Source: Methanosarcinales archaeon (GTDB lineage: Archaea; Halobacteriota; Methanosarcinia; DSM-18856; Methermicoccaceae). Taken from it: 20,042 nt of DNA. Of the stretch, positions 1 to 20,042 are shown piece by piece; position 1 is the stretch's first letter; each line of letters starts with the position of its first letter. A program made the position numbers and the translations under genes. The stretch is from the NCBI GenBank assembly GCA_003661015.1, contig QMVI01000005.1, positions 1 to 20,042 on the forward strand. The letters are read 5' to 3'. The notes under the pieces were generated by a model. It made no database searches and was not told the origin of the DNA. It worked only from the letters and a program-made list of their open reading frames with translations.

Positions 1-1469
1 TCAACATCCATTGAATCTCGGGTATATGCAGCAATTGCAGCCGATATTGCAGCCATTTTTGCATCCTCTACACCGAAAGCAGCCGCAAGCGAATCTCTCT
101 TTTCCTTCTCGTCTTTGACAATCTTTTCAACAGATGCAACTATATTTCTTTCCTGAACAAAGTGTGTGTTGTAGTTTCCTTTCCTAAACTCTTTGTCTCT
201 CATGACAGCTTTGTGGAATGGTATGTTTGTAATAACCCCCACTATTATGTATTCATAGAGCGCTCTGTCCATTCTCTTTATGCTCTCATCTCTGTTTCTT
301 CCCCACACAGACAATTTCGATATCATTGGGTCGTAGTAGGGCGGTATCTCGTAGCCCATATGCACACCACTGTCCACCCTAACTCCCGGACCTCCCGGAG
401 ATCTGTATCTTCTTATTCTGCCTGGACAAGGTGCAAAATCTCTCAATGGGTCTTCTGCGTTGATTCTGCACTCTATTGCGTGACCATTGACAGTTATGTC
501 ATCTTGGGACACACTCATACCCTCTTCAGATGCTATCAATATCTGCTCCTTTACGATATCGACCCCAGTAGTCATCTCGGTTATTGGATGCTCTACCTGT
601 AATCGTGTGTTCATTTCGAGGAAGTAGAAGTTGCCATTTGAGTATATGAACTCTACAGTCCCAGCGTTTTTGTATCCTATGATTTCCCCCACTCTTTTTG
701 CAACCTTCCCCATCTTCTCTCTAAGCTCCTCAGTCATCACAGGCGATGGGGCCTCTTCGATGAGTTTCTGATGTCTTCTCTGTATTGAGCACTCCCTCTC
801 ATTCAAGTGTATTATTTCTCCATCATAATTTCCAAGTATCTGAAATTCTATGTGTCTCGGATTTGGCAGGTATTTTTCAAGAATCAGTCTTCCATCACCG
901 AATGCAGATGTTGCCACGCTCGTCGCTCTCTCAAATGCTTTGAGGATATCCTCTTCACTACGAGCAATCTGCATTCCTATCCCGCCACCACCTGCAGAAG
1001 CCTTTAAGATGACTGGATAGCCTATTTTCTCCGCACACTTCAGCACACTATCTTCATTGATATCGGAATAACCCGGTATAACGGGAACACCACCCCTCTC
1101 CATCATCTCTTTTGCCTTGCTCTTATCCCCCATCATCTCGATAACATCACTCGAAGGGCCTATGAATGTGATACCTTCATCTTCACATCTTTTTGCAAAA
1201 CTATGGTTTTCTGCGAGAAATCCATAGCCTGGATGTATGGCATCTGCACCACACTTTTTGGCTATCTCTATGATTGCCCCTATGTTCAAATAACTCTTTG
1301 AGGGTGGAGCCTCTCCAATTCTGTATGCCTCATCTGCATATCTTGCAAACAGTGCACCCTTGTCAGCGTCAGAATAAACTGCAACGCTCTTTATTCCAAG
1401 TTCTCTGCACGCCCTCATCACACGGATCGCTATCTCTCCTCTGTTCGCTACGAGCACTTTTTTGAACAT
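1..1469 (-). CDS. Biotin carboxylase (ATP-grasp) subunit of a biotin-dependent carboxylase (pyruvate carboxylase subunit A / acetyl-CoA carboxylase AccC type); C-terminus runs off the window
   Basis: Absent from the ORF track because no stop lies in the window. Manual reverse translation from ATG (1469-1467) gives an uninterrupted ~489-codon frame: [37 protein letters not shown]...[11 protein letters not shown]...[20 protein letters not shown]...[16 protein letters not shown]...[11 protein letters not shown]. These are hallmark biotin carboxylase motifs. Confidence 0.9.
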
Positions 1470-1482
1470 GGTACCATAATTA

Positions 1483-1492
1483 ATTTTAAACT
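1483..1492 (+). promoter_or_regulatory. TATA-like box for thiDN (leaderless-type spacing)
   Basis: The A/T-rich ATTTTAAACT is centred about 26 nt upstream of ATG 1513. The 43-bp divergent spacer also carries ATTAATAG on the other strand, about 25 nt from the biotin carboxylase ATG. Confidence 0.3.
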
Positions 1493-1512
1493 ATTAATGG
1501 TTATTCTGTGGT

Positions 1513-2829
1513 ATGAAGTGTGTAATGACGGTTGCAGGTTCTGATTCTGGGGGTGGTGCTGGGATACAAGCTGACTTGAAGACGTTTGGTGCTCTTGGAG
1601 TTCATGGTGTGAGTGTTGTAACTGCCATCACCTCACAGAACACGTTGGGCGTCCGTTCAATACATATTGTGCCTGTTGATGAAATCGAGTCTCAGTTTGA
1701 AGCAATCTTCGAAGACTTCAATGTTGAGTGGTGTAAAACAGGCATGCTTCCAAATGAGGAGACTATAAAGCTTGTTTGTGAAATACAGAAAAAGTATGGG
1801 TTGTCTCTGGTTGTTGACCCAGTTGTTTATGCGGAAAGTGGTGCGAAATTGACCAAATCAGCTGATGCATTGTGGAGGATTATGCAGAGATGCGTGGTTG
1901 CGACTCCAAACAAGATGGAGGCAGAGCTACTTTCAGGGGTCAGAATAGAATGCGAGGATGATGTTATTGAGGCGGGAGAGAGAATTGTTAAGAGGGGGTG
2001 TTCTGCTGTTGTGATAACGGGTGGTCATCTGGATGGCTCTGATTACTTGATTACATCTGATGAAGTTGAGGTGATAAGAGGGAAGTTGGTGGAAGGAGGA
2101 ACACACGGTGCTGGCTGTACTTTCTCTGCAGCCCTCACATCTTACTTATCGAGGGGATTTGACCTTCTGGAAGCATGCAAACTGGCAAAGGAATTTACAA
2201 AGTCTGCAATAATACACAGTACTCCTGTTGGAAGAGGTTCACATCCCGTTGACCAACTTCACGAGACAAGGGAATACTCAGAACGTTTTAAAGTCCTTTT
2301 GAATGTCAGGAAAGCGGTTGATATCATTGTCAGCACCCCCGAGTTTTCCGAGGTTATACCTGAGGTTGGCACAAATGTGGGCATGGGCATAATGGGGGCA
2401 AAAAGCGAGGAGGATGTTGCTGCTGTGAGCGGAAGGATTGTTCGTACTCTCTGTACGACATCTCTCACCCAGTAGCCAAACGCATGTGGTGATGTAGAGT
2501 TTGGGGCAAGTGGGCATGTTGCAAGAATAATACTCACCGCTCATTCCATATTTCCACACATAAGAGCTGCAATTAATATGAGGTATGGAGAGGATGTTAT
2601 CAGGGCATGTGAGATACTGGGTTTGAGGATAGGTAGTTTTTCGAGAGATGAAGAGCCGGAAGGTGTATCCACGATGGAGTGGGGAATTTCGACAGTGCTA
2701 TCCAAGGGAGAAGTCGATGTGATATACGATAAGGGAGCAGTAGGCAAGGAGCCCATGGTCAGGTTGATAGGAAAGGATGCAGTTGAGGTTGCACAGAGAG
2801 CTGTTGATATTGCAAGATTTATAAGTTAG
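1513..2829 (+). CDS. thiDN: Bifunctional ThiD-ThiN (HMP/HMP-P kinase fused to ThiN-type thiamine-phosphate synthase), with one in-frame TAG at 2473-2475
   Basis: ORF-track pieces 1513..2475 and 2578..2829 share a frame and are separated by a single TAG. Hand translation of 2476-2577 ([34 protein letters not shown]) has no other stop. The N-terminal half carries ThiD motifs ([32 protein letters not shown]). The C-terminal half carries ThiN-type motifs ([28 protein letters not shown]) on both sides of the TAG. The annotated end is itself a TAG (2827-2829); the next in-frame stop is TGA 2851-2853. Confidence 0.85.
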
Positions 2830-2847
2830 GAATTGGATAGAAATAAT

Positions 2848-3145
2848 GGGTGAGAGAGGAAGGGCGGCTTACGCACCCATGGGGTGTGAGGAAAGTCCCC
2901 CCTCCGTTTGGACGCACGAACGCCCGAAAGGGCGTAGGGCGAGAGCCCTGGCAATGGCACAGAAACGACACCGCCACGTATGAGTGCGATGATTCCGCAA
3001 GGATGAGGTCGTACGTGTGCGGATGAAACGGCAAATCCTCGTGGGTGCAAGCGGTGGATGAAGGCGGACGTCCAACCGCCTCCACCAATATGCGCTTAGC
3101 CAAATGCCGCCGAAACAGAAGGGGGCTTACTCTCCTCACTCACCC
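2848..3145 (+). ncRNA. rnpB: RNase P RNA (archaeal type A-like)
   Basis: The universally conserved GAGGAAAGUCC (CR-I) is present and pairs, as P4 (AAGUCCCCC / GGGGGCUU), with a 3' ACAGAAGGGGGCUUAC element (the CR-V-like ACAGAA..GGCUUA motif). P2 is GGCGGC (2863-2868) / GCCGCC (3106-3111). The P1 terminal helix pairs GGGUGAG.GAGGA (2848-2860) with UCUCC.CUCACCC (3131-3145). The region is GC-rich and structured, and its only ORFs (2819..3139, 2826..3050, 2869..3075) are composition artefacts. Ends are approximate, within a few nt. Confidence 0.9.
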
Positions 3146-4209
3146 TTTGCTTTCGACACTCCCGCCTCCTCAAATGTTTTCATTTCGGTGAGAATTTTAG
3201 CACTTGCCTCCACGATTGAGATTCCAAGCGCAGCACCTGTCCCCTCGCCGAGACGCATATTGAAATTGAATAGGGGATTGAGTCCAAGTTCATTCAGAAC
3301 CGCTGAATGTCCCGGTTCTGCCGATTTATGTGCTATAGTCAGGTAATTCTTGACTTCCGGATGCAATTTAGATGCAATCAAAGCCCCGACTCCGGAAATG
3401 AATCCATCCACTACGACCGGTACATGGTTAGCACATGCAGAAAGCACAACACCACATATGCCTCCTATCTCAAAACCACCAACCTTTGATAAAACATCTA
3501 TTGGGTCGGCGGGGTCTGGTTTGTGAAGCTCGATTGCATTTTCTATGGCTTCAATCTTTCTTTTTAGCTTTTCATCATCTATACCAGTTCCTCTCCCACA
3601 AACCTTCTACACGGGGAGTCCTGTGAATACCGCTGTGATGGCGGTGGAGGGTGATGTGTTCCCGATTCCCATATCCCCTGTTCCAACCACATCACATCCT
3701 CGTTTATAAATTTCCTCAAAAATCTCTATTCCAGCCTCTATAGAGCGTATGGCTTGTTTTCTTGTCATGGCAGGCTCTTTTTCCATATTCCTTGTTCCAT
3801 GTCCTATTTTTTTCACGATGAAGTCTTGACGAGATTCAGGGGGTGGTCTGATGTCGGATTTCACACCCATATCCACCACAATCACTTTTGCACCGACATG
3901 TCTTGCAAGAACATTTATCGCAGCTCCACCAGATAAAAAATTGTACACCATCTGGGCGGTAACATCTTGCGGGTATATACCAATACCACTCTCAACTATC
4001 CCATGGTCTCCCGCCATCGTGATTATGACCTTTGAGTCGATTCTTGGCATTGGATTTCGTGTTATGCCAGCGAGTTTGACCGACAGATCTTCAAGAAGCC
4101 CAAGGCTTCCAATGGGTTTTGTTAAATTGTCCTGCCTGTCCTTTGCCTTCTTCATCGCTTCTTCATCAAGTGGTTCGATTCTTTCAATAGTCCTTTCAAT
4201 GGTATCCAT
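3136..4209 (-). CDS. cobT: Nicotinate-nucleotide--dimethylbenzimidazole phosphoribosyltransferase (CobT), with one in-frame TAG at 3607-3609
   Basis: ORF-track pieces 3607..4209 and 3136..3447 are in the same frame. Hand translation across the gap reads ...[75 protein letters not shown]... with no other stop. CobT motifs lie on both sides ([13 protein letters not shown] upstream; [25 protein letters not shown] downstream). Total is 357 codons, a typical CobT length. Stop is TGA. Confidence 0.88.
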
Positions 4210-4232
4210 TTCTCACCCCACTATCACACTCA

Positions 4233-4243
4233 GTATAAAGTTT
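4233..4243 (-). promoter_or_regulatory. TATA-like box for cobT
   Basis: The minus strand reads AAACTTTATAC, centred about 27 nt upstream of the cobT ATG (4209). Confidence 0.3.
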
Positions 4244-4341
4244 AAAAAATTTTTTAACTTTAATCAAAATATTTTTAGAAAGTTGTAAATTATATTTGAA
4301 TTGGGAATTTGAATTAGAGGTATGAATAATCTATGGAATAA

Positions 4342-4351
4342 TCTATAAATG
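4342..4351 (+). promoter_or_regulatory. TATA-like box for the HerA-like gene
   Basis: TCTATAAATG is centred about 28 nt upstream of ATG 4374. It lies within the tandem 11-nt repeat GAATAATCTAT (4324-4334 and 4336-4346). Confidence 0.3.
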
Positions 4352-4373
4352 TATAACTGCACCATCATGAATT

Positions 4374-5945
4374 ATGTTGCTTGGCAGAGTATGTACCTTT
4401 GACGCAGATACTTTCGAATTCATAACAAGAAAAGTAATTCCTTCTGGTATGTTTGTGTGCTATTACGAAGAAGATAAGCCGGTACTGTGTAGAGTGTGCG
4501 AGTGTACACCTTTGAATGAGCTCCCACCTGAGCTGTTGGATGCAGAGTCGGTAAAATGGGAGGAGATAATGGAGTTTTTCGGGTTTGATACCACTAATTT
4601 CAAACTTTTTAGTGTAAAAGCAAAACTTATAGGATATTTTGACAAAAACCTCGGCGAATTCATAAATCCAAGAAGGATGCCTCCGCCCGGCACACCTGTT
4701 GAGGAAGCTGGCAGGGATGTGTTGGTGTACCTCAGCAAGGTGGGAGACGGAGAAGGCTCTGCTTACATAGGAGAGGTGCTTGGCACTGATGTTCCAGTGT
4801 ATATTTCGGTAAGGGATATCGTGAGTCAGCACCTCTCTGTCATAGCATCAACCGGTGCTGGAAAATCATATGCAGTGGGTGTGATTCTTGAGGAGATGAT
4901 GATGCCCAAGAACTGTGCATCTGTTCTTGTGCTTGACCCACATGGTGAATATTCATCGATGGTAGAAATCATGAACAATCAGAATTTCAGGTCTGAGGAG
5001 TATCGGGCTAATGTAATGGTTGTGAAGCCAGAGAAAATAAAAGTTAGGCTGGGCGACCTTGAGCCAGAGGACTTGTTATCACTCATAGATGATGGAAACC
5101 TCTCTGAGAAGATGAGAACCTTCCTCACCAAGGCATATTATGACGCAAAAGAAAACATCCTCACGTATTCGAGTCTAATTGGTGCGGTTGAAGCTTTGGG
5201 GGAGGACAAGAGACACGAATCAACTGTTGATGCACTTAGATGGAGGCTCGAAAAACTTCGAAGAGTGGGTGTTCTTGATGACTATCGTGGAATTCCTCTC
5301 AGAGATTATTTCAGAGCAGGAAGACTGACAATCGTTGATGTGAGTGGCATACCAGACAGTCTACAACAACTTGTTGCAACAGTTCTTCTGAGACTGCTGT
5401 TTGATGCAAGAAAGGGAACTATCACGGGAGAGTATGTAGAAGGAGATGAGAGATATATCCCTTCCCCAGCGTTTGTCGTACTTGAAGAAGCCCACAGATT
5501 TGCACCAAGAGAAGGATTCTCTCTATCGAAAAAGATACTGAAGACAATTCTTTCTGAGGGAAGGAAGTTTGGTGTGGGCGTCTGCCTGATATCACAAAGG
5601 CCAAGCAAGATTGATCAGGATGTATTGTCTCAATGTCTGTCTCAAATCACACTGAGAATTGTGAATCCAGCTGACCAAGAGTACATAGCACAAACAGTAG
5701 AGAGTTTCAGCAGGGACATCGTGAGGGAACTACCTTCATTACCCACAGGTGTCGCCATCGTTTCTGGTATATGCATAAATACACCCACGCTTGTTAGGGT
5801 GAGGAACAGAATCATCAAACCGAGGATTGGGCAGTCGATAAATGCACCTGCGGAATGGAGGAGAATTGCCCAAGAGACAGATGACAGAATGTCGGAAGTG
5901 CCAGCACACAAATCATCATCGATTGAGGAGGACCTTGGGATATGA
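4374..5945 (+). CDS. HerA/DUF87-family P-loop ATPase (FtsK-HerA superfamily)
   Basis: 523-aa ORF with Walker A (IASTGAGKSYAVG), Walker B (FVVLEEAHRFAP) and the downstream EGRKFGVGVCLISQRPSKIDQDVLSQC...LRIVNPADQ block typical of HerA/DUF87 ATPases. The N-terminal ~130 aa resemble a HAS-barrel-like region. Stop is TGA, overlapping the ubiX ATG (ATGA). Confidence 0.8.
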   Translation: MLLGRVCTFDADTFEFITRKVIPSGMFVCYYEEDKPVLCRVCECTPLNELPPELLDAESVKWEEIMEFFGFDTTNFKLFSVKAKLIGYFDKNLGEFINPRRMPPPGTPVEEAGRDVLVYLSKVGDGEGSAYIGEVLGTDVPVYISVRDIVSQHLSVIASTGAGKSYAVGVILEEMMMPKNCASVLVLDPHGEYSSMVEIMNNQNFRSEEYRANVMVVKPEKIKVRLGDLEPEDLLSLIDDGNLSEKMRTFLTKAYYDAKENILTYSSLIGAVEALGEDKRHESTVDALRWRLEKLRRVGVLDDYRGIPLRDYFRAGRLTIVDVSGIPDSLQQLVATVLLRLLFDARKGTITGEYVEGDERYIPSPAFVVLEEAHRFAPREGFSLSKKILKTILSEGRKFGVGVCLISQRPSKIDQDVLSQCLSQITLRIVNPADQEYIAQTVESFSRDIVRELPSLPTGVAIVSGICINTPTLVRVRNRIIKPRIGQSINAPAEWRRIAQETDDRMSEVPAHKSSSIEEDLGI

Positions 5946-6529
5946 GGATAGTGGTTGGAATGACCGGAGCAAGCGGGATACAGATAGGATTGAAGATACT
6001 TGATGTGCTGAGCGAGGGAGGGGATGACATTGACATAGATCTGATACTCTCGAAACCAGCTCTCAGAATATTACAACTCGAGACTGACATGTTTCCAGAA
6101 GATGTGGTTGAAAAGGCTACGTTTGTGTGGGACGATTATGATATGGATGCTCCAGTAGCGAGCGGCTCCTGTCGATTTGATGGCATGGTTGTTGTACCGT
6201 GCAGTATGAAGACACTTGGAGAAATAGCATCAGGCATATCCCAGACGCTCATTTCAAGGGTTGCTGATGTATGTCTGAAAGAGAGAAGAAAACTCGTCCT
6301 CGTTCCGAGGGAGACACCTCTCAACGTCATACATCTGGAGAACATGTTGAAAGTTGCAAGGGCTGGAGCCATTGTGCTTCCAGCATGTCCTGCATATTAC
6401 ACAAGACCAAGGACTGCTGAGGATTGCATAGATTTCATAGCAGGCAGAGTTCTGGATATGCTTGGTGTCAAGCATTCTCTATACACAAGTTGGGAAGAGT
6501 TGAGAGAGGACGAACTCAGAGAAGGCTGA
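5942..6529 (+). CDS. ubiX: Flavin prenyltransferase UbiX (prenylated-FMN synthase)
   Basis: 195-aa ORF. Motifs: MRIVVGMTGASG N-terminus, VVVPCSMKTLGEIASG, and LKERRKLVLVPRETPL..IHLENM. These form the characteristic UbiX/Pad1 flavoprotein pattern. Confidence 0.88.
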   Translation: MRIVVGMTGASGIQIGLKILDVLSEGGDDIDIDLILSKPALRILQLETDMFPEDVVEKATFVWDDYDMDAPVASGSCRFDGMVVVPCSMKTLGEIASGISQTLISRVADVCLKERRKLVLVPRETPLNVIHLENMLKVARAGAIVLPACPAYYTRPRTAEDCIDFIAGRVLDMLGVKHSLYTSWEELREDELREG

Positions 6530-7673
6530 GTACCTCTTTCAGAATCTCTGAACTCTTTGGTCTGTCCTCATAGAGCTGCGGTATCTTAACAGTCTTTCCA
6601 TCGAGCCTTACAATCTCTCCACCTTCATCAAGTCCGAGCTTTGCAACCGGGAATGAATGGTGTGCGAGCTTTGTTGTGAGCGTTGGATGAGGCGACAGAG
6701 AGATTATTTTCGCATCGTTGCATGGAAGTTCGAATAGCACATCTCCACACAGGTCTATTATCAGGTCAGCTCCGCTTTTGTATATTGGTTCGGATTTTGT
6801 CCATTCGCCATCATATTTGATGGCATTTATGGAACCACTCCTTTCCATCATGAGTGTGCAAACCCCTCTTGAATTTGCGTTCAGGAATAGAGGTGAGAAT
6901 GAGAATGTAGTTTTCAGTTCAAGTGTCTCTTTCAACTCCAAAAAAGGTTTGAGCTCTTCATCCTTTACAGCCTCGTTTCCTATGATTACAACGCCATCCT
7001 CTGCCCTCTTTATTAGCCTTACAAGGTTTATTATCTCCTTTTGTTCAACATATTTTGTGGGTCTTGGAACACTCCCAGCTATCGCATCTGAGAGTATTGT
7101 GTAAAACTTGCTTATTTCAGCATACTCGACCTTCATATACTTGTTTACAACTCTGCCACACGATGATTGGTGCGCATCTATACACACAGTCTTCCTGTCT
7201 TTCTCCCATCCTTGTTGTCTTTTTTCTCCCCTTGGATAGTAAGAGTACATCGAAAGATGTCTTGGATGTGTGCTCAAAGGGTCACAAAAGAGGTATAGGA
7301 TAACATCTGCGTTGTCTTTTATCCAGTCAAGGCTAACTTCCCTCAATTCTCCTCGGAGTAATAGTTCCAGTACATGTCCGTGGTAGAGAGATGTCTCGTT
7401 ATCGACTCTTGCACCGACTTTTTCTGCTATATCAAGAGCATAACCAACGGCTTCCTGAGAGAGGTTTGATAGCCCATATATCAGAGGAGTAGATGCCTTA
7501 TCCAACTCCTGAGCAATCAGTTCGGCAACCTCCTCAACATCCAGCTCTTTCTTTAGATTTGCTTTGAGGTATTCAGTTCCTTTCCGACAGGCATTGAAGA
7601 TATCTGCCCCGTCTATCACCACGTCCTCACATGCGAGGGCACAACCCGTGCATACAGTAGTTATGGTACTCAT
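6516..7673 (-). CDS. Formylmethanofuran dehydrogenase subunit B (FwdB/FmdB)-like molybdopterin-oxidoreductase-family protein, divergent and orphan
   Basis: 385-aa ORF. It has an N-terminal Cys cluster (VCTGCALACED...NACRKG), then PLIYGLS, VGARVDNETSLYHG, NADVILYLFCDPLSTHPRH, and a C-terminal block (SLSPHPTLTTKLAHHSFPVAKLGLDEGGEIVRLDG), collinear with FwdB as I recall it. No fwdA/C/D genes are adjacent. Confidence 0.6.
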   Translation of the reverse strand: MSTITTVCTGCALACEDVVIDGADIFNACRKGTEYLKANLKKELDVEEVAELIAQELDKASTPLIYGLSNLSQEAVGYALDIAEKVGARVDNETSLYHGHVLELLLRGELREVSLDWIKDNADVILYLFCDPLSTHPRHLSMYSYYPRGEKRQQGWEKDRKTVCIDAHQSSCGRVVNKYMKVEYAEISKFYTILSDAIAGSVPRPTKYVEQKEIINLVRLIKRAEDGVVIIGNEAVKDEELKPFLELKETLELKTTFSFSPLFLNANSRGVCTLMMERSGSINAIKYDGEWTKSEPIYKSGADLIIDLCGDVLFELPCNDAKIISLSPHPTLTTKLAHHSFPVAKLGLDEGGEIVRLDGKTVKIPQLYEDRPKSSEILKEVLSLL

Positions 7674-7697
7674 GTTAAATGGACAGACAACCTTCGT

Positions 7698-7706
7698 GTA
7701 TATATT
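7698..7706 (-). promoter_or_regulatory. TATA-like box for the FwdB-like gene, inside a 13-nt direct repeat
   Basis: The minus strand reads AATATATAC, centred about 29 nt upstream of ATG 7673. CCTTCGTGTATAT occurs twice (7691-7703 and 7708-7720). Confidence 0.3.
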
Positions 7707-7727
7707 GCCTTCGTGTATATGTTGTTT

Positions 7728-8837
7728 TCAAAGGAAGTCTATCAGTGTGCTTTTGATGAGTTCTGACTTCTTCTTTTCCTCCTTTCCTTCCTCCTCGTAG
7801 CCATCGTAGTCTTTGATTCCAGATATTATGGCAAGTACCCTCACTTTACCCTCGTAGTCATCTCTCACTCTTGCTCCCCATATCACATTGGCATCATCGG
7901 AGATTTCAGATGTTAATGACCTTCCTATTAGGTTTGCCTCTTCAAGTGTCAGGTCAGGTCCACCTGTGATATGTATGAGTGCTCCTGTCGCGCCATGGAA
8001 TGTTGTGTTAAGTAGCTGATTATTCACCGCATATCTCACAACATCGTTTGCCTTTTCTGGTCCACTTGCCTCTCCAACAAGTATGGTTGCAGTTTTACCC
8101 TGACCTTTGCTTCCTCCCATCACGGATTTCACATCTGCATAGTCAAGGTTTATGAGAGATGGCTGGGTTATGGTCTCTGTTATACCTTTTATGGTCTCTG
8201 CTATGATTTGGTCCATGACCAAAAATGCCTGTTCGATTGGAAGATGTGGTACTATGTCAAGTAATCTCTGATTATCGAGGATTATAACTGTCTGGGACAC
8301 CTTTTTGAGCTCTCTTATCCCTTTCTCCGCCTTTGCACTTCTTGCTCTTTCAGTCAAAAACGGTGTGGAGACCATAGATATAACGATAGCACCAGTTTCT
8401 TTTGCAATTTCTGCAACAACAGGTGCAACACCTGTACCTGTTCCTCCCCCCATTCCAGCGGTTATAAAGACAAGGTCAGCACCCTCGATGTGTGGTCTCA
8501 GCTTCTCTCTTGAATTCTCTGCAGCCCTCCTCCCCTTTTCAGGGTCGCCACCAGTTCCAAGGCCTCTCGTTATGGACTTGCCTACTAGAATCTTCTTGTC
8601 TGCTTGTGTTATTCTGAGGTGTTGATGGTCTGTGTTTATTGCAATGGTCTCTGCACCTTCAATACCCATCTCAAAAAGACGGCGTATGGTGTTGTTGCCA
8701 GCACCTCCACATCCAATCACTTTTATTCTTGGTTTGTATTCATGTACATCGTCTAACTCGCCCTCAATATCCAACCCTTTTTTTGCATAACTCAAAGCCG
8801 CATTTATTATAGATTCCATTATATCCATCCCCTCCAT
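7728..8837 (-). CDS. ftsZ: Cell division GTPase FtsZ
   Basis: 369-aa ORF with the tubulin/FtsZ signature: [38 protein letters not shown], and the T7-loop region NLDYADV. It has an acidic C-terminal tail. It starts 6 nt after the cdrS-like stop. Confidence 0.95.
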
Positions 8838-8843
8838 GGACTT

Positions 8844-9029
8844 TTATGACATCTCAGAAAGGATTTTGATTTTCTCCATGATCTTGTCTTCTCTTCTTTC
8901 TATTAGCTCTCTGACAGCGTCTCTCACCGCCTCACTCACAGACGGAAATTCACCACATGCCACCAGTATATTGAGCATGCGTATCTGTTGTTCCGGAAGC
9001 CTCACAGTTATCTTTTCCATGGCTCTCAT
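8844..9029 (-). CDS. cdrS: Small ribbon-helix-helix (CopG/CdrS-like) DNA-binding protein immediately upstream of ftsZ
   Basis: The core MEKITVRLPEQQIRMLNILVACGEFPSVSEAVRDAVRELIERR shows the RHH pattern (beta strand plus two helices). Likely starts are ATG 9029 or 9020. The track ORF start at 9146 adds a Cys-rich extension that reads through repeat DNA. Synteny with ftsZ matches the cdrS-ftsZ2 arrangement described in haloarchaea. Confidence 0.7.
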   Translation of the reverse strand: MRAMEKITVRLPEQQIRMLNILVACGEFPSVSEAVRDAVRELIERREDKIMEKIKILSEMS

Positions 9030-9046
9030 CCTTTCTGACTTTGGGG

Positions 9047-9114
9047 TACATATGCCAGACATACACATGCCAGACACATGTCTGTCACTTGTCCGACATA
9101 TGATAGACACATGT
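9047..9114 (-). promoter_or_regulatory. Repeat-rich putative operator/promoter region upstream of cdrS-ftsZ
   Basis: The plus strand carries tandem units TACATATGCCAGAC (9047-9060) and ATACACATGCCAGAC (9061-9075). AGACACATGT occurs twice (9072-9081 and 9105-9114). There is an inverted repeat CAGACA-ca-TGTCTG (9071-9084). A TATA-like CTTTATATGG (minus strand, about 9122-9131) lies further upstream. Confidence 0.35.
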
Positions 9115-9142
9115 AGGACATCTCTCCATATAAAGATTTTGT

Positions 9143-10861
9143 TCATAACACATTTATCTTGGCGGGTGGTAATGTGATGATAATCCTTGTTCCCTCTCCC
9201 TCTTCCGAATGTATCAGTATGCTACCACCCAGAGACCTCACGATACCATACGAAACAGACAAACCAAGTCCAGTACCTTCACCAACCGGCTTTGTTGTGA
9301 AGAATGGCTCAAACACATGCGGCAGCACATCTTTTGGTATTCCTATCCCATTGTCCTCAATCTCGATGACAACCATGCCATCCTTTTCGTAAGTGTGTAT
9401 CTTTATTACCTTGTCCTGTGTCTCTTTATGATTCAGTGCCCATATTGAGTTCGATATTATGTTCAGAAAGACTTGCATGAGCTTCTCCCTTTCGCCCATC
9501 ACACTGCTTTTGGCATCGAGCATTTTTTCAACTTTTATTCCTCTCAGCTCATGGGCGAGGATTGTGAGAGTCTTTTCGATAACATCGTTGATATTCAGCT
9601 CATAAAATTCTCCTCCCCCTTTTCTTGAGAAGTCGAGAAGGTCTGAGACAATCTTCTTGATCCTCATTCCAGCCTCTTCGATCTCGCAGACAATTTCGTA
9701 GTGCTCGCTATCAGATGGCAGTTCGTCCTTCAATATCCAAGCATAGTTCAGTATTACCGTGAGCGGGTTGTTAATTTCGTGTGCAACTCCCCCAGCCAAC
9801 TGTCCAATTGATACAAGTCTCTCTGCATGGGCAAGCTGTGCTTCGAGTTTTTTTCTCTCTTCTTCAAGCTCTTTGATACGGGTTTTATCTAAGATAACCC
9901 CATCAACATGTTCGTTGATTTTTCTTCCCCGCTCTACAACATATTTCCCGTTGACAGTTCTGTACTCGGTTCTGTAAGGTTCCCCCTCCCGTATGTATTT
10001 CATCACGTTCTCTTTATCTTCGGGATGAATGAGTGTGAGATATGATTTTCCTATGAGTTCCGATGGTTCCAGTCCGAATAAGTTCTTGCTCTCATCACTC
10101 ATGTACTCGATTGTCAAGTTGTCATCCAGAAGTCTTCTGAAAACAACCCCCGGAATGTTTTGAACAAGCGTCTCAAATCTTTCCTTGGCTTTTTTAATTT
10201 CCTCTTCTGACTTCAGACGCTCTGTTATATCAACAAGACTTCCGAGAACAACTTTCTTTCCTCTGTATGTGGCTGATGCACCGTAAGCTTCAACCCACCT
10301 AACAGACCCGTCTTTTTTTACTAATCTGAACCTCAAAGGGGGCACATCCATCTTTCCTTCAAGCCTCTCCTTTATTCGATTCTTAACAATTTCTCTGTCT
10401 TCTGGATGCACCACTTCCAATAACGCATTTTTTCCAGTCAGCTCGTCTCTTTTGTATCCAAGTATTCTTGAAAACTTTGGATTCACATATACCAGCGTTC
10501 CATTCTCATCCACCATATACACACCATTTATTTCATTCTCGGTGAGAGTTCTGAACAATTCCTCTCTCTCTGCCAGAGCTTCTTTAGCGTCTTTGAAGTA
10601 TTTGAGCTCGTTCAGGATTACATCACACTCCTTTATCAGGGCAAGTGCAAATATCAGCATCCCAGTGCCCATCAGTATGCTCTCTGAAAGTTGGAGAATT
10701 ATGCTGTCTGATATCTCACTGACCACATTCACAAGTAAGCCGAGAGAAAACAGACCCCACCCTACGTTGACAAGGAATATTTTAAGTTTGGTGAGAAAGA
10801 AAAACGCAACTACTGAAGCACAGAATATTGCTATGTTGATTGCGATGAGCTCTGACATCAT
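9143..10861 (-). CDS. Membrane-anchored PAS/PAS sensor histidine kinase
   Basis: The N-terminal region is hydrophobic (about 3-4 TM segments). Two PAS-like modules follow (FRTLTENEINGVYMVD...; FETLVQNIPGVVFRR...), then an H-box (GVAHEINNPLTVI) and the HATPase N/G boxes (NIISNS...EDNGIGIP...GTGLGLS). The track ORF starts at 10915. I favour ATG 10861/10858 (MMSEL...) because a TATA-like ATTATATTG sits about 26 nt upstream and it avoids crowding the radA promoter. Confidence 0.85.
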   Translation of the reverse strand: MMSELIAINIAIFCASVVAFFFLTKLKIFLVNVGWGLFSLGLLVNVVSEISDSIILQLSESILMGTGMLIFALALIKECDVILNELKYFKDAKEALAEREELFRTLTENEINGVYMVDENGTLVYVNPKFSRILGYKRDELTGKNALLEVVHPEDREIVKNRIKERLEGKMDVPPLRFRLVKKDGSVRWVEAYGASATYRGKKVVLGSLVDITERLKSEEEIKKAKERFETLVQNIPGVVFRRLLDDNLTIEYMSDESKNLFGLEPSELIGKSYLTLIHPEDKENVMKYIREGEPYRTEYRTVNGKYVVERGRKINEHVDGVILDKTRIKELEEERKKLEAQLAHAERLVSIGQLAGGVAHEINNPLTVILNYAWILKDELPSDSEHYEIVCEIEEAGMRIKKIVSDLLDFSRKGGGEFYELNINDVIEKTLTILAHELRGIKVEKMLDAKSSVMGEREKLMQVFLNIISNSIWALNHKETQDKVIKIHTYEKDGMVVIEIEDNGIGIPKDVLPHVFEPFFTTKPVGEGTGLGLSVSYGIVRSLGGSILIHSEEGEGTRIIITLPPAKINVL

Positions 10862-10919
10862 AACCACAATTGTTGCACAATATACAATATAATGTTTATT
10901 TTCTATTATATTCACAATA

Positions 10920-10929
10920 CTTTAATAAG
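10920..10929 (+). promoter_or_regulatory. TATA-like box for radA
   Basis: CTTTAATAAG is centred about 26 nt upstream of ATG 10951. Confidence 0.3.
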
Positions 10930-10950
10930 AGGAGTACAAAGGATGGAGCA

Positions 10951-11952
10951 ATGGCAGAAGTGCAGGATAGAAAGACAATAGAAGATTTGCCAGGTGTTGG
11001 CGCAAGCACAGCAGAGAAATTGAGAGATGCAGGATACAACTCAATTGAAGCAATTGCAGTAGCATCTCCCTCTGAATTGGCATCTTCGGTTGCAGATATG
11101 AGCGAAAGCACCGCATCCAAGATAATCAAGGCTGCGAGAGAACTTGCAGACATTGGTGGGTTTGAGACAGGAGACATTGTGTATGAGAGAAGGAAGAAAG
11201 TTGGAAAACTCACAACGGGTAGCTCTGCCTTGGATTCTCTGATAGGAGGAGGTGTTGAAACACAGTCCATAACCGAACTTCATGGGGAATTTGGCTCTGG
11301 AAAGACGCAGATTGTTCATCAGCTGTGCGTGAATGTACAGCTTCCAAAAGAGGTTGGTGGGCTTGAAGGTTCTGCAATCGTGATAGATACCGAGAATACG
11401 TTCAGACCAGAAAGAATAACCCAGATGGTTGAGGGGTTGAAGATTAGGTATGAGGATGAGTACCCGGATATCTCGTTTGACCCAAAGGAATATTTGAAGA
11501 ATATACATGTTGCAAGAGCATACAACTCAAACCATCAGATTCTTCTGGTTGATAGTGCAAGCCAACTTGCAGAATCTTTGAAGGACTCAAAACCTGTGAA
11601 ACTCTTGGCTATTGATTCGTTGACTGCTCACTTTCGCTCCGAGTATGTGGGGAGGGGCACACTCGCTGATAGACAGCAGAGACTGAACAGACATCTTCAT
11701 GACCTTTTAAGATTTGCATCCCTATTTGATGCGGTTGTTGTTGTCACAAATCAGGTGATGGCACGTCCTGACGTTTTCTATGGTGACCCCAACAAGCCAA
11801 TTGGAGGACATGTACTTGCACACACCGCCACCTATCGAATATCTCTCAAAAAGAGCAAACACAACAAAAGAATTGCAAGATTGATAGACTCACCTTCACT
11901 TCCTGAGGGAGAGGTGATTTTTTCAGTCACAGAGTATGGAATTGCGGATTAA
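10951..11952 (+). CDS. radA: DNA repair and recombination protein RadA
   Basis: N-terminal HhH domain ([27 protein letters not shown]), Walker A (GEFGSGKTQ), Walker B (LLAIDS), and TNQV...GGHVLAH. The start is moved from the track's 10870 to ATG 10951 (MAEVQDRK...), because the 27 upstream codons read through the AT-rich promoter. Confidence 0.95.
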
Positions 11953-11962
11953 TGGGGAGAAC

Positions 11963-12670
11963 ATGCAAGTCAAGGTTGTTGCGACAGACATCGATGGGAC
12001 CCTCACAGACCGCTCAAGAAAACTGAATCCATCTGCTCTGCAAGTTGTTCAGAATCTCTCGGAGTGCGTGAAGGTTGTGCTTGCAACAGGAAACACCCTG
12101 TGTTTTACTTGGGCATGTTCTGTTCTTTTGGGAACTGGTGGGGCGGTTGTTGCGGAGAACGGGGCGGTTGTTGCGAGTGGGTACGATTCTGAGCCTCTCA
12201 TTCTCGGGGATAAGGAGAGATGCCTTAGAGTTTATCCCATTCTTGTGGAGAAGTTCTCTGCAAGAGCACTTGATATCGATTACAGACTTGGAGAGGTTGT
12301 TCTTGAACGGAATTTTTGCCTGTCCGAAGCTAAACGGATAGTTGAGCAGTATGACCCAGAACTGGAATTGGTCGATACAGATTTTGCAATTCATGTGAAG
12401 CTGAAGAATGTGAGCAAGGCAAGAGGACTGGAAAGACTGGTCAGCACCTTTTCTGCGAGTATGGATGAAGTTGCTGCTTTTGGCGACTCGAGGAATGATA
12501 TCCCGATGCTTGAAAAGGCAGGTGTCTCTCTGACAGTTGCGAATGCTCCATCAGATGTGAAGGGTGTGTGTGATTATGTGAGTCCGCATCCATTTGGAGA
12601 AGGGTTTGTTGATGGTGTTCGTTGGCTTGTTGAGAGGGGATTTATAGAGGATGTCGCAGGACTGTTTTGA
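11963..12670 (+). CDS. HAD-IIB (Cof-type) phosphatase, archaeal phosphoglycolate-phosphatase-like
   Basis: HAD motifs: DIDGTLTD (I), VLATGN (II), K...GDSRNDIPM (III/IV). The size is typical of the family. The likely start is ATG 11963 (MQVKVVATDIDG), preceded by GGGGAGA. The track start at 11936 overlaps the radA end. Confidence 0.75.
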   Translation: MQVKVVATDIDGTLTDRSRKLNPSALQVVQNLSECVKVVLATGNTLCFTWACSVLLGTGGAVVAENGAVVASGYDSEPLILGDKERCLRVYPILVEKFSARALDIDYRLGEVVLERNFCLSEAKRIVEQYDPELELVDTDFAIHVKLKNVSKARGLERLVSTFSASMDEVAAFGDSRNDIPMLEKAGVSLTVANAPSDVKGVCDYVSPHPFGEGFVDGVRWLVERGFIEDVAGLF

Positions 12671-13607
12671 TACCAGAAGTCTCGCTTTCAGAGTCGAGAG
12701 AGAGAAAGGTGAGAAAGTAAGACGTTGTCTTTTAGAGTAGGGACTTCTCAGAAAAGATTTGAAACCTTTTTCAGATGAAAAATTTGTTTATTTTCCTGTA
12801 AAAGATAGTGCAGAGGGTGTTATGGACGGGGATTTTGTCTGGAAGAGTTTTCAACCCATAAAAAAGCGAAAAACCCACTTGGACATTATTGGCAGAATAA
12901 GTTTTGACATCGTGGGTGATATAGCGCTTGTTGACCTCAAGGCTATCAGTGGGTTGGATAGGAAGGAGGTGGCAGACACACTCCTCAGCACACTCCCTAT
13001 CAGGTCAGTTTTTGGTGTTGGGGAAGTCAGTGGAGAGTTTAGAGTTGCCCAGCTCGTTCATTTGGGAGGAAGCAGAAACACACTGACTCTTCACAAAGAA
13101 AATAAATGCGTTTTCGAGCTTGATGTAGCCAGAGTTTACTTCAATCCGAGACTTGCAACAGAGAGAGCAAGGGTCGAGAGAAGAATCTCGCAAGAGGGGG
13201 CAAGGGTAATTCTCGATATGTTCGCTGGCGCAGGTCCATTTTCGATACTGATCGCAAAGATGGACAAAACCAGAGTTGTTCATGCGATAGAAAAGAATCC
13301 GGTTGCATGTCATTTTCTCAGAAGGAATGTTGAGCTAAATAAAGTGAGTAATGTGATAGTACATGAGGGAGATGTGAGAGATATACTTGCCACCCAGAAG
13401 ATAGAGGCGGATGCAATAATCATGAACCTCCCCCACACAGCAATCAACTTCCTCCCTCTTGCGTTGAAGTGTTCGCACCCCGGTACCCTCATATTCTTAT
13501 ATACGATATCTGCGGATGAGCCAGACATACAGGGAATGGAGAGGGCGAGGAAGGTGAAATCATATGCTCCGGGTGTTTCCATATGGTGTGTTGAAGTGAG
13601 GGTTTAA
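12651..13607 (+). CDS. trm5: Trm5/Taw2-family (Met-10+) tRNA methyltransferase, with one in-frame TAG at 12738-12740
   Basis: The track ORF 12759..13607 starts at a TTG. The same frame is open upstream to ATG 12651 except for one TAG: MSQDCFDTRSLAFRVEREKGEKVRRCLLE-TAG-GLLRKDLKPFSDEKFVYFPVKD. This is collinear with the N-terminal D1 domain of archaeal Trm5 (pattern GE..RR.L.E..LL.KD.K.....Y.Y.P.KD). The body has FDIVGDIALV, GEFRV..L.HL.G...T.HKEN, VYFNPRLATER, DMFAGAGPFSI, and NLP. Confidence 0.85.
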
Positions 13608-18334: not shown

Positions 18335-19266
18335 TGATGACCTCCATGAGCCAGTGGTTCTGAGGAATTGTACGTAATCCACACAGATACATAGGGTATG
18401 ACCAGCATAGAAAACAGCAAGACACCGAGGATTATTGACTCGAGTTCAATTGGAGAAAGTACAGGATAGTATTCATATATGCCATAACCGAGAAATCTTG
18501 CAATTATTCCCACGAGGAGAGTTGAAAAAATAAATACGCTTACGAGTTTATCTGCATTGGAAAGTTTCAGTTCTTTATAGAATGTTCTTTTTTTGTTCTC
18601 TCCAAAAGCTCTTGCCTCCATCGCCTCTGCAATTTCAACACTTCTCTCGAGTGAGTTTGCCAGCAGAGGCACAAGCACAGGAAATCTGTTTTTTATTCTT
18701 TTGATTATTGAGCCTCTATCGAGTTCAAGTCCTCTTGTTCTCTGTACGTCTGTGATTGTCTCAACATCAGAAAGCAGAGTGGGTATGAATCTTGATGAGA
18801 GGGATACAATTAGCACAGATTTGTATGGCACCTTCATTTTTAACATCAACATGAGAATATCGTCTGGATGCACACTCACAGTTATGATTGCAAATGCAGA
18901 TAGGATAACAAGCAATCTAACACCCATCATGATACCATAGAAGAGTGCTTCAAGTGTTATGACCGGAGAACCAAAGAAAGGCAGGTCATATCCGAGACTG
19001 TACAAAATATGCTCACCATTGTGATTGAATGCGATGTTTAGCAGAACTATCACCGGAATGAAAAAAAGTCCGAACTTAACAAAGAATGACCACTCTTTGA
19101 TTATTTTTCCAAATACTGCTGGCGGTATTGTTGCAACAAAAAGCAATATCAAAACAACGGGATTGTCAAAAATAAGGCTCAGTATTAGGATTGTGATTGC
19201 CCATATTATCTTTGGCATTGCATTCATCCTGTGAATCGGCGTGTTTGCCTCTTTATAGACCATCAT
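18331..19266 (-). CDS. ecfT: ECF-transporter transmembrane T component (EcfT/CbiQ family)
   Basis: Polytopic membrane protein with the coupling-helix region (SSRFIPTLLSDVETITDVQRTRG...RSVEIAEAMEARAF), matching the Ala-Arg-Gly-type motifs of EcfT/CbiQ. The start is placed at ATG 19266 (MMVYKE...), overlapping the upstream TGA (ATGA). Confidence 0.85.
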   Translation of the reverse strand: MMVYKEANTPIHRMNAMPKIIWAITILILSLIFDNPVVLILLFVATIPPAVFGKIIKEWSFFVKFGLFFIPVIVLLNIAFNHNGEHILYSLGYDLPFFGSPVITLEALFYGIMMGVRLLVILSAFAIITVSVHPDDILMLMLKMKVPYKSVLIVSLSSRFIPTLLSDVETITDVQRTRGLELDRGSIIKRIKNRFPVLVPLLANSLERSVEIAEAMEARAFGENKKRTFYKELKLSNADKLVSVFIFSTLLVGIIARFLGYGIYEYYPVLSPIELESIILGVLLFSMLVIPYVSVWITYNSSEPLAHGGHQ

Positions 19267-19730
19267 GGTACTGGAATCACCTCTCCATTCACAACCACAC
19301 ACGCATACCTGTATCTTATTTCATCCGGGTTCAGAAGCACATTTACACCGCCCTCAACCTCCTCGGCAGTGGTACCAGCCACCACCATCACCATATTCTC
19401 ATTGGCAGCAGTTCCCTTTGGATTCCAAGGGTTGTTTACTGCAACTATAACACATCCATCATCGTATTCCCTTCCATTAACCGTCACAACCTTTCCATTC
19501 TCGATATATGCGTACAAATTGAGTCTCTGAGCTATGGAGAAGATATGGGATGCTGGCTCAAATGATGCATCCCCTATCAGTATCAGATTGTCTTTTTTCT
19601 TCTCATCATCCTTCAACTCATCCCATCTCTTTACCTTCACACTTGCCCCAGCACCTTCAAGATATTTCTTTATCTTCTCAGCATCATCATTGAATCCGTT
19701 TTGATAGACTATGATTGTATCTCTAACCAT
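19263..19730 (-). CDS. Hypothetical soluble protein/domain; either a separate 155-aa protein or the C-terminal domain of the DUF4430 protein if TAG 19737-19739 is decoded
   Basis: ORF MVRDTIIVYQNGFNDDAEKIKKYLEGAG...VVNGEVIPVP. I recognise no family. It is in the same frame as the upstream DUF4430 ORF, separated by TAG-AAC-GGC. Stop is TGA, overlapping the ecfT start. Confidence 0.6.
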   Translation of the reverse strand: MVRDTIIVYQNGFNDDAEKIKKYLEGAGASVKVKRWDELKDDEKKKDNLILIGDASFEPASHIFSIAQRLNLYAYIENGKVVTVNGREYDDGCVIVAVNNPWNPKGTAANENMVMVVAGTTAEEVEGGVNVLLNPDEIRYRYACVVVNGEVIPVP

Positions 19731-19736
19731 GCCGTT

Positions 19737-20042
19737 CTATCCATGCACGAAGGGCTCTGGATATGCACCTACCATCGCCACCCTTCCATAGGTCTCCCAT
19801 GCGTGATAATCCCATATCTCGAAATCCCCGGGGTGGAGTACGTACTGGGCTGCTCCTACCTCTGCAAAAAACCCGTTTATGGTGTAGAACCAATCCACCT
19901 TTTCACCCATCTTGAATAGGGATTCATGTCCGTTTATTGCCTCTACAAATCCACCCCCATAAGCTGTTTTAACAGATGCAACTTTTTTCAGGGCATCCAT
20001 TGCAGTGGTTTTACCTTCTTCTATCTCAACCTCTTTGTCGAG
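19737..20042 (-). CDS. DUF4430 (transcobalamin-like C-terminal domain) protein; N-terminus outside the window; the frame meets a TAG at 19737-19739
   Basis: Open frame from the window edge: LDKEVEIEEGKTTAMDALKKVASVKTAYGGGFVEAINGHES...DWFYTINGFFAEVGAAQYVLHPGDFEIWDY. This matches the DUF4430 pattern (t.a.d.L......G.fv..I.G......W.y.vNg....vga..y.l..GD.i.w.Y). Confidence 0.7.
   Translation of the reverse strand, partial: LDKEVEIEEGKTTAMDALKKVASVKTAYGGGFVEAINGHESLFKMGEKVDWFYTINGFFAEVGAAQYVLHPGDFEIWDYHAWETYGRVAMVGAYPEPFVHG

What the first reader, a model, noticed from the sequence alone, without database searches (positions are those of the whole stretch)
2473..2475. In-frame TAG inside the ThiN domain of ThiDN
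The TAG lies after ThiN-type motifs ([14 protein letters not shown]) and before the conserved FGASGHVAR and TMEWG blocks. It therefore does not fall at the ThiD/ThiN fusion boundary, and the pieces cannot be two separate genes. The first start codon downstream (ATG 2578) would discard 34 codons, including FGASGHVAR. The context is ACC CAG TAG CCA AAC.
Basis: seen in the sequence. Interest (0 to 1): 0.7.

Follow-up and report, generated by a model that had tools for sequence, protein, structure and literature searches.

The report
Pyrrolysine codon inside archaeal ThiDN gene
The in-frame TAG in this thiamine-synthesis gene is real, but it is best explained as a sense codon for pyrrolysine, because the window comes from a close relative of archaeon JdFR-19, a lineage already reported to read every TAG that way.

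Summary
TAG at 2473-2475 is codon 321 of a 438-codon ThiDN frame (1513-2826), and the Pfam ThiN model aligns in one stretch (residues 264-430) straight across it.

It is neither an error nor a pseudogene:
- The same TAG is present in an independent ENA assembly (99.8% identical) and in Methanomicrobia archaeon JdFR-19 (93% nucleotide identity).
- The 117 codons after the TAG are under purifying selection (dN/dS 0.26, p=0.003).

It is also not unique in the window:
- CobT (TAG 3607-3609) and a DUF4430 protein (TAG 19737-19739) carry internal TAGs with homology on both sides.
- All 17 terminators assigned in the window are TGA or TAA.
- ThiDN's apparent end (2827-2829) is itself a TAG, followed seven codons later by a TGA.

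Published work (Kivenson et al. 2024 preprint; Guo et al. 2022) classifies JdFR-19 as using "Genetic Code 34", in which all TAG codons encode pyrrolysine. It reports 191 predicted Pyl proteins, PylSn+PylSc and a tRNA-Pyl.

The ThiDN Pyl sits in a hypervariable, low-confidence hairpin loop enlarged by a lineage-specific 6-residue insertion, so it is probably a tolerated neutral substitution.

This is a known phenomenon in a sister genome. The Pyl machinery itself lies outside the window and was not verified here.

The parts
1513..2853 (+). ThiDN coding sequence, read with TAG as a sense codon and ending at TGA 2851-2853. The ThiD kinase domain covers about 1543-2253 and the ThiN domain about 2302-2802.
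   Evidence: Translation. Pfam PF08543 matches residues 11-247 and PF10120 residues 264-430, each as one stretch. NCBIfam PRK08573 matches residues 2-434.
2473..2475 (+). In-frame TAG, codon 321 of ThiDN; inferred pyrrolysine codon. This is the finding under review.
   Evidence: Present in the window, in ENA contig L001 and in JdFR-19 (L002). Homologs carry V/L/K/S/Y/R/A/E at this column. In the AlphaFold model it lies in the loop between strands (model residue 69; that 10-residue block has mean pLDDT 68 against 92.7 overall).
2446..2463 (+). Lineage-specific 6-codon insertion (TLCTTS) in the ThiN hairpin loop. It ends three codons (LTQ) before the TAG.
   Evidence: It appears as a gap in all 29 other ThiDN sequences aligned and in PDB 2PHP/2PB9. 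It is shared with JdFR-19.
2827..2829 (+). Second TAG, at the apparent end of ThiDN (codon 439). If read as sense it adds O-ELDRNNG before TGA 2851-2853.
   Evidence: Translation. The 27-nt tail is identical in JdFR-19. Homologs end at about this point, so whether it acts as stop or sense is undecided (a 'Category 2' short extension in Kivenson's scheme).
2852..3141 (+). Archaeal RNase P RNA gene, wedged between ThiDN and CobT. It marks the window as archaeal.
   Evidence: Rfam RF00373, 210 bits, E=9e-62, full length.
3136..4209 (-). CobT-type phosphoribosyltransferase (DBI_PRT) with an internal TAG at 3607-3609 (codon 201).
   Evidence: Pfam PF02277 matches residues 11-351 and profile positions 1-329 of 329, in one stretch across the TAG. 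The TAG is also in L001, whereas JdFR-19 has TCG (Ser) at that codon.
3607..3609 (-). In-frame TAG in CobT; inferred Pyl codon, specific to the window's lineage.
19263..20042 (-). DUF4430-domain protein (N-terminus lies off the window) with an internal TAG at 19737-19739.
   Evidence: Homologs of the part after the TAG are the C-terminal halves of 300-360 aa proteins. BLASTP of the read-through product against P0122, P0123 and P0125 is continuous across the TAG, and all three have Tyr there.
19737..19739 (-). In-frame TAG in the DUF4430 protein; inferred Pyl codon replacing a Tyr that is conserved in homologs.
9416..9418 (-). CAG (Gln) codon in the PAS histidine kinase, at the position where the JdFR-19 ortholog has TAG.

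Best explanation
The window comes from an archaeon of the JdFR-19 lineage (Methermicoccaceae), about 93% identical in DNA to Methanomicrobia archaeon JdFR-19. In this lineage UAG is read by pyrrolysyl-tRNA(Pyl) as a sense codon, the published 'Genetic Code 34', and termination relies on UGA and UAA.

ThiDN is therefore made as a single full-length bifunctional protein with pyrrolysine at residue 321. That residue sits in an exposed, hypervariable beta-hairpin loop of the ThiN domain, next to a lineage-specific 6-residue insertion. It is most likely a tolerated, near-neutral substitution that arose by a single-base change, not a catalytic residue. No special mRNA signal is needed.

Shown here:
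- The TAG is real and is conserved in relatives.
- The reading frame is continuous and under purifying selection across it.
- Other genes in the window also carry internal TAGs.
- No gene in the window needs TAG as its terminator.

Inferred from the literature, not from the window: the inserted residue is pyrrolysine, and the organism carries pylT, pylSn, pylSc and pylBCD.
For: (1) The Pfam ThiN model aligns in one stretch across the TAG. MAFFT alignments with 29 ThiDN homologs and with PDB 2PHP/2PB9 are also continuous.

(2) The TAG appears in three independent assemblies: the window, ENA ERZ27227322 contig L001 (99.8% identical, 10 mismatches in 5.4 kb) and JdFR-19 (93.2% identical over 12.9 kb).

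(3) Window versus JdFR-19 gives dN/dS 0.10 upstream and 0.26 downstream of the TAG. Downstream there are 117 codons with no stop or indel. Synonymous change exceeds nonsynonymous change there (Fisher p=0.003).

(4) Two further genes carry internal TAGs with homology on both sides: CobT and the DUF4430 protein.

(5) In 17 curated genes (6396 codons) there are 4 in-frame TAGs. The 16 complete genes of that set end in TGA (11) or TAA (5), and none needs TAG. A small RHH gene at 8844-9146, outside the set, also ends in TAA.

(6) Residues aligned to TAG differ from site to site: Tyr, Ser, Gln, and V/L/K/S/Y/R. Where the matching codon was read it is one base from TAG (TCG, CAG; Tyr codons are too).

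(7) JdFR-19 carries extra internal TAGs in neighbouring genes: a geranylgeranyl-reductase-like gene, TruD and the histidine kinase.

(8) Literature: JdFR-19 is classed as fully recoded to Code 34, with 191 predicted Pyl proteins and 13% TAG frequency. Its PylRS/tRNA-Pyl pair is active in E. coli (10.1101/2024.09.30.615893). It encodes PylSn+PylSc and a tRNA-Pyl (PMC9630628; PMC9499178).

(9) There is no unusual RNA structure after the TAG (z=-0.07), consistent with context-independent Pyl insertion.
Against: No Pyl machinery lies in the 20-kb window: there are no tRNA genes at all. My attempt to retrieve the lineage's PylSc failed. The identity of the inserted residue therefore rests on published analysis of the sister genome.

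No proteomic data exist for this lineage; the proteomics in the preprint were done on M. alvi and M. burtonii.

The residues aligned to TAG are simply the one-step neighbours of TAG. They cannot on their own discriminate Pyl from another amino acid.

In Methanosarcina acetivorans UAG is decoded ambiguously as stop or Pyl (PMC12626013), so some truncated ThiDN may also be produced.

Retention of the TAG at 93% identity is only weak evidence by itself: roughly half of neutral codons would be unchanged at that divergence.
Confidence: 0.88

Rival explanations
1. Ambiguous decoding. UAG is read partly as pyrrolysine and partly as stop through competition with aRF1. The cell would then make both full-length ThiDN and a 320-residue truncated form, possibly depending on Pyl supply.
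For: UAG has a dual meaning in Methanosarcina acetivorans (PMC12626013). The preprint notes that aRF1 is retained in all Pyl archaea. ThiDN's natural end is itself a TAG with a back-up TGA 7 codons later, a layout that tolerates either reading.
Against: Internal TAGs sit in three genes of biosynthetic or transport function within 20 kb. No gene in the window needs TAG as terminator. Both facts argue that read-through must be efficient. JdFR-19 is classed as fully recoded. This rival is a matter of degree and is not a different mechanism.
Confidence: 0.08
2. Pseudogene. A nonsense mutation has inactivated ThiDN, or at least its ThiN half.
For: Under the standard code the ORF stops at 2475. Gene callers split it into 320-aa and 83-aa fragments.
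Against: The downstream 117 codons stay intact and under purifying selection across the split from JdFR-19 (dN/dS 0.26, p=0.003). The same pattern occurs in CobT and the DUF4430 protein, and in further genes of JdFR-19. Three nonsense pseudogenes among 17 genes, all TAG and none TAA or TGA, is implausible.
Confidence: 0.01
3. Sequencing or assembly error at 2473-2475.
For: None beyond the prior chance of error in metagenome assemblies.
Against: The same codon is present in three independent assemblies from at least two studies.
Confidence: 0.005
4. TAG is a sense codon but is read by a suppressor tRNA charged with a canonical amino acid (for example Gln, Tyr, Trp or Leu) rather than pyrrolysine.
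For: The window itself says nothing about which residue is inserted. One site replaces a conserved Tyr and another corresponds to Gln in the sister genome.
Against: The aligned residues disagree between sites: Tyr, Ser, Gln and a variable column. Published analyses find a complete PylSn+PylSc/tRNA-Pyl system in JdFR-19 that suppresses UAG in E. coli.
Confidence: 0.02

Closest known systems
Genetic Code 34 in Methanomicrobia archaeon JdFR-19 (Methermicoccaceae), Kivenson et al. 2024 preprint
   Same: The lineage is the same (93% nucleotide identity, syntenic over 12.9 kb). Both ThiDN TAGs are at identical positions. Internal TAGs lie in housekeeping genes and TGA/TAA serve as terminators.
   Different: This is a different genome, probably a sister species. 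It has its own TAG in CobT (JdFR-19 has TCG) and lacks the JdFR-19 TAG in the histidine kinase (CAG here). I could not read the preprint's Table S11 to confirm that ThiDN is listed among the 191 Pyl proteins.
Pyrrolysine in methylamine methyltransferases (MtmB/MtbB/MttB) of Methanosarcina
   Same: UAG is decoded by Pyl-tRNA(Pyl) inside a single reading frame.
   Different: There Pyl is a conserved catalytic residue, and mtmB carries a downstream PYLIS-like structure. Here the site is a hypervariable surface loop with no downstream structure (z=-0.07), so a catalytic role is unlikely.
Neutral-drift Pyl sites, such as tRNA-His guanylyltransferase in Methanosarcina (cited in the preprint)
   Same: Pyl occurs at a non-conserved position of a housekeeping enzyme, restricted to one genus, and arose by point mutation.
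   Different: In Methanosarcina UAG remains ambiguous between stop and Pyl. In the JdFR-19 lineage internal TAGs are far denser (3 of 17 genes here).
Selenocysteine recoding of UGA
   Same: A stop codon is read as a non-standard amino acid inside an ORF.
   Different: Sec needs a SECIS element and a dedicated elongation factor and is site-specific. Nothing comparable is seen or needed here.

Membership tests
ThiDN (fused HMP/HMP-P kinase ThiD + thiamine-phosphate synthase ThiN) | N-terminal phosphomethylpyrimidine kinase domain (PF08543) | tested here: met
   Residues 11-247 match profile positions 1-246 of 246, E=1e-75. TIGR00097 scores 262 bits, above its cutoff of 205.
ThiDN (fused HMP/HMP-P kinase ThiD + thiamine-phosphate synthase ThiN) | Complete C-terminal ThiN domain (PF10120) in the same frame | tested here: met
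   Residues 264-430 match profile positions 1-163 of 165 in one stretch across the TAG. It aligns to PDB 2PHP and 2PB9. The invariant motifs PEVG.N, GR, FGAS.H and [11 protein letters not shown] are kept. The AlphaFold model has mean pLDDT 92.7.
Genetic Code 34 (TAG = pyrrolysine genome-wide) | Internal TAG codons in conserved genes, with homology before and after the TAG ('Category 1') | tested here: met
   ThiDN, CobT and the DUF4430 protein: 3 of 17 genes in the window.
Genetic Code 34 (TAG = pyrrolysine genome-wide) | TAG is not needed as a terminator, and no TAG read-through creates a long out-of-frame overlap ('Category 4' absent) | tested here: met
   Terminators of the 16 complete curated genes are TGA 11, TAA 5, TAG 0; the small RHH gene at 8844-9146 also ends in TAA. 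The only terminal TAG (2827-2829) gives a 7-codon extension. The sample is only 20 kb.
Genetic Code 34 (TAG = pyrrolysine genome-wide) | The genome encodes tRNA-Pyl (pylT), PylRS (pylS, or pylSn+pylSc) and pylBCD | not testable with these tools
   No tRNA gene lies in the window. A PylSc homolog search returned only Methanosarcina sequences in its listed hits. The machinery is reported for the sister genome JdFR-19 in PMC9630628 and the preprint.
Genetic Code 34 (TAG = pyrrolysine genome-wide) | Pyl detected at TAG positions by mass spectrometry | not testable with these tools
   No proteome exists for this uncultured lineage. The published proteomics were on M. alvi and M. burtonii (supplementary table list).
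PYLIS-assisted Pyl insertion (mtmB type) | Stable stem-loop immediately 3' of the UAG | tested here: not met
   Positions 2473-2580 fold at -24 kcal/mol against a shuffle mean of -23.8, z=-0.07. The literature does not require this structure for Pyl insertion.
Nonsense pseudogene | Relaxed selection, frameshifts or stops downstream of the premature stop | tested here: not met
   Downstream dN/dS is 0.26 with no indel or stop in 117 codons against JdFR-19. The other two reading frames of the same segment each contain 7 stops.

The most novel reading that the evidence does not exclude
Comparing this genome with JdFR-19 shows that pyrrolysine codons are still turning over after the code change. 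One TAG is shared (ThiDN). One is specific to this genome (CobT, TCG in JdFR-19). One is specific to JdFR-19 (histidine kinase, CAG here). One replaces a Tyr conserved in the homologs compared (DUF4430).

The most novel reading not excluded is that the conserved ThiDN Pyl, sitting beside a lineage-specific loop insertion, has been retained by selection and contributes to ThiN function or regulation. One version of this would couple thiamine synthesis to Pyl availability. The alternative is that it is simply neutral.
Probability: 0.08. Interest if true: 0.55.

Novelty: already known. Interest (0 to 1): 0.28.

Why it matters
Practically, standard (code 11) annotation splits ThiDN, CobT and the DUF4430 protein into fragments. 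That would wrongly suggest the organism has lost thiamine and cobamide functions, so genomes of this lineage need to be called with TAG as a sense codon.

Scientifically, the window adds a second genome to the most heavily recoded Pyl lineage known. It gives a small, concrete view of gain and loss of Pyl codons between sister genomes (TCG/TAG, CAG/TAG). That bears on the published idea that this lineage switched code long ago and that recoding is a one-way street. It does not reveal a new mechanism.

Tried and rejected
(1) I searched for the lineage's PylSc using the M. mazei PylRS catalytic domain. The 120 listed hits were all Methanosarcina-type, so nothing could be tied to JdFR-19 or to sample ERZ27227322.

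(2) The supplementary tables of Kivenson et al. and Guo et al. are not held. I could not check whether ThiDN is in the list of 191 JdFR-19 Pyl proteins, nor obtain the pylT or PylS sequences.

(3) An exact-product look-up of the 155-aa ORF after the DUF4430 TAG found nothing.

(4) A metagenome scan for close ThiDN relatives returned only the JdFR-19 contig again (L047). The remaining hits were at most 57% identical over long matches (one 54-residue fragment reached 64%), so no additional genus members were found.

(5) A PYLIS-like structure after the TAG was looked for and not found.

(6) Split-gene reading, with ThiN re-initiating at ATG 2578: rejected. The 34 skipped codons include the invariant FGAS.H block and are conserved.

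(7) Two separate genes at the DUF4430 TAG, since an ATG lies 3 codons downstream: rejected. Homologs are single 300-360 aa proteins that align across the site.

(8) A full-text search for papers mentioning both pyrrolysine and ThiDN found none.

Full report
**Observation.** The window reads ACC CAG TAG CCA AAC at 2467-2481. The frame opening at ATG 1513 gives 320 sense codons, then TAG at 2473-2475, then 117 more sense codons up to 2826. The next ATG (2578) is 34 codons downstream.

With X in place of the TAG, Pfam finds the ThiD kinase domain (PF08543) at residues 11-247. It finds the ThiN domain (PF10120) at residues 264-430 as a single stretch covering profile positions 1-163 of 165. NCBIfam's ThiDN model PRK08573 aligns over residues 2-434. 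The TAG (residue 321) therefore lies inside ThiN.

**What kind of genome this is.** An archaeal RNase P RNA lies at 2852-3141 (Rfam, 210 bits). A scan of GTDB species representatives with the read-through protein found one close relative. That relative is Methanomicrobia archaeon JdFR-19, contig MTMG01000014.1. It is 93.2% identical in DNA to window positions 3-12910 and syntenic with them.

The next-nearest ThiDN sequences come from Methermicoccus shengliensis and a Methermicoccaceae MAG, at 56-57% identity. A JGI metagenome scan found only the same JdFR-19 contig again. An independent ENA assembly (ERZ27227322) carries contigs 99.8% identical to the window.

**The TAG is neither an error nor a pseudogene.** The ENA contig and JdFR-19 both have TAG at the same ThiDN codon. 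Between the window and JdFR-19 the gene has about 82 substitutions. dN/dS is 0.10 upstream and 0.26 downstream of the TAG.

The 117 downstream codons have no indel or stop, whereas the two other frames of that segment each contain 7 stops. The excess of synonymous over nonsynonymous change downstream is significant (Fisher p=0.003). The 34 codons a restart at ATG 2578 would skip differ by only two conservative replacements and one synonymous change. They include the invariant FGAS.H block.

**The TAG is not alone.** Reading TAG as sense reveals two further interrupted genes.
- **CobT-type phosphoribosyltransferase (3136-4209, minus strand).** It has a TAG at 3607-3609. Pfam DBI_PRT aligns at positions 1-329 of 329 in one stretch across it.
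- **DUF4430 protein (19263-20042, minus strand, N-terminus off the window).** It has a TAG at 19737-19739. Homologs of the segment after the TAG are almost always the C-terminal halves of 300-360-residue proteins. The read-through product aligns continuously with three such homologs, all with Tyr at the TAG position.

In 17 curated genes (6396 codons) there are 4 in-frame TAGs. The 16 complete genes of that set terminate at TGA (11) or TAA (5), and none needs TAG. A further small RHH gene (8844-9146) also ends in TAA. The fourth TAG is ThiDN's apparent terminator at 2827-2829. Read-through there adds seven codons to TGA 2851-2853, and the 27-nt tail is identical in JdFR-19. Whether that TAG acts as stop or sense cannot be decided here.

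**Comparison with JdFR-19 shows turnover of TAG codons.**
- The two ThiDN TAGs are shared.
- The CobT TAG is specific to the window lineage; JdFR-19 has TCG, Ser.
- The JdFR-19 histidine kinase has a TAG where the window has CAG, Gln, at 9416-9418.
- The 8.5 kb of the JdFR-19 contig beyond the window holds further internal TAGs, in a geranylgeranyl-reductase-like gene and in TruD.

The residues aligned to TAG are Ser, Gln, Tyr and a variable column. Where the matching codon was read it is one base away from TAG (TCG, CAG), as Tyr codons also are. They do not agree on any single canonical amino acid.

**Where the residue sits.** In alignments with 29 ThiDN homologs the TAG column is hypervariable (V, L, K, S, Y, R, A, E, G, H). 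It lies in the hairpin between GRIVR and (A/V)xG.xxFGAS. The JdFR-19 lineage alone has a 6-residue insertion (TLCTTS), which ends three residues before the TAG. The solved ThiN structures 2PHP and 2PB9 show the same gap.

An AlphaFold model of the ThiN domain is confident overall (pLDDT 92.7). It places the residue in the loop between two strands, in the only low-confidence block (mean 68). This points to a tolerated surface position, not a catalytic one; that is inference. The RNA after the TAG has no unusual structure (z=-0.07).

**Mechanism and what is known.** The literature addresses this lineage directly.
- **Kivenson et al. (bioRxiv 10.1101/2024.09.30.615893).** They define "Genetic Code 34", in which all TAG codons are pyrrolysine. 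They single out JdFR-19 (Methermicoccaceae) as the genome with the most predicted Pyl proteins (191), 13% TAG frequency and up to four Pyl per protein. They show that its PylRS/tRNA-Pyl pair suppresses UAG in E. coli.
- **Guo et al. 2022 (PMC9630628) and Meng et al. 2022 (PMC9499178).** They report separate pylSn and pylSc genes and a tRNA-Pyl in JdFR-19.

The best explanation is therefore that UAG 2473-2475 is decoded as pyrrolysine and ThiDN is made full-length. The steps I showed myself are reality of the codon, frame continuity, purifying selection, multiple internal TAGs and absence of TAG terminators. The identity of the residue and the presence of the Pyl machinery are taken from published analysis of the sister genome. 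The window has no tRNA genes, and my PylSc search was uninformative.

Shalvarjian et al. 2025 (PMC12626013) show that UAG is ambiguous in Methanosarcina acetivorans. Some termination at UAG therefore cannot be excluded.

**Verdict.** The cause is a known, published recoding in this very lineage, so novelty is low. What the window adds is a second genome of the JdFR-19 group and direct evidence of lineage-specific gain or loss of Pyl codons. Annotators should call these genomes with TAG as sense; otherwise ThiDN, CobT and the DUF4430 protein appear as fragments, as in the ENA gene calls.

Noticed in passing
window 3607-3609 (minus strand), within CobT 3136-4209: A second gene with an internal TAG. 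The DBI_PRT profile aligns full-length across it. JdFR-19 has TCG (Ser) at this codon, so the TAG is specific to the window's lineage.
   Followed up: yes
window 19737-19739 (minus strand), within 19263-20042: A third gene with an internal TAG, a DUF4430-domain protein next to an ECF-type transporter module. The three homologs compared all have Tyr at this position.
   Followed up: yes
window 2827-2853: ThiDN's apparent stop is itself a TAG. The back-up TGA at 2851-2853 overlaps the first bases of the RNase P RNA gene (2852). A TTTATAA at 2818-2824 inside the ThiDN 3' end looks like the TATA box for RNase P RNA. The 27-nt tail is identical in JdFR-19.
   Followed up: partly
window 3136-3141: The CobT stop codon (3136-3138, minus strand) overlaps the 3' end of the RNase P RNA gene (ends at 3141), so the RNA gene is squeezed between two coding genes with no spacer.
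   Followed up: no
L002 17567-19315 (minus strand); window 9416-9418: The JdFR-19 ortholog of the PAS histidine kinase has an internal TAG where the window has CAG (Gln). TAG codons thus differ in both directions between the two genomes.
   Followed up: yes
L002 1385-2560 (+) and L002 1-1395 (-): In JdFR-19, just beyond the window's left end, a geranylgeranyl-reductase-like gene (TAG at codon 121 of the open frame) and a TruD pseudouridine synthase (TAG at codon 406) also carry internal TAGs.
   Followed up: partly
window 6516-7673 (minus strand): A 385-aa protein with no Pfam hit at E<=0.001. It has an N-terminal Cys-rich motif (CTGCALAC) reminiscent of formylmethanofuran dehydrogenase subunit B or molybdopterin oxidoreductases. 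It is conserved in JdFR-19.
   Followed up: no
window 15846-19302 (minus strand): An ECF-type transporter module: an S component (15846-16610), a fused double ABC ATPase (16607-18382) and a CbiQ/EcfT subunit (18331-19302). It lies directly downstream of the DUF4430 gene. Together with CobT this may be a cobamide-related neighbourhood.
   Followed up: no
window 2446-2463: A six-codon insertion (TLCTTS) in the ThiN hairpin loop, found only in the window and JdFR-19 among the 29 other ThiDN sequences aligned. It ends three codons (LTQ) before the Pyl codon.
   Followed up: partly
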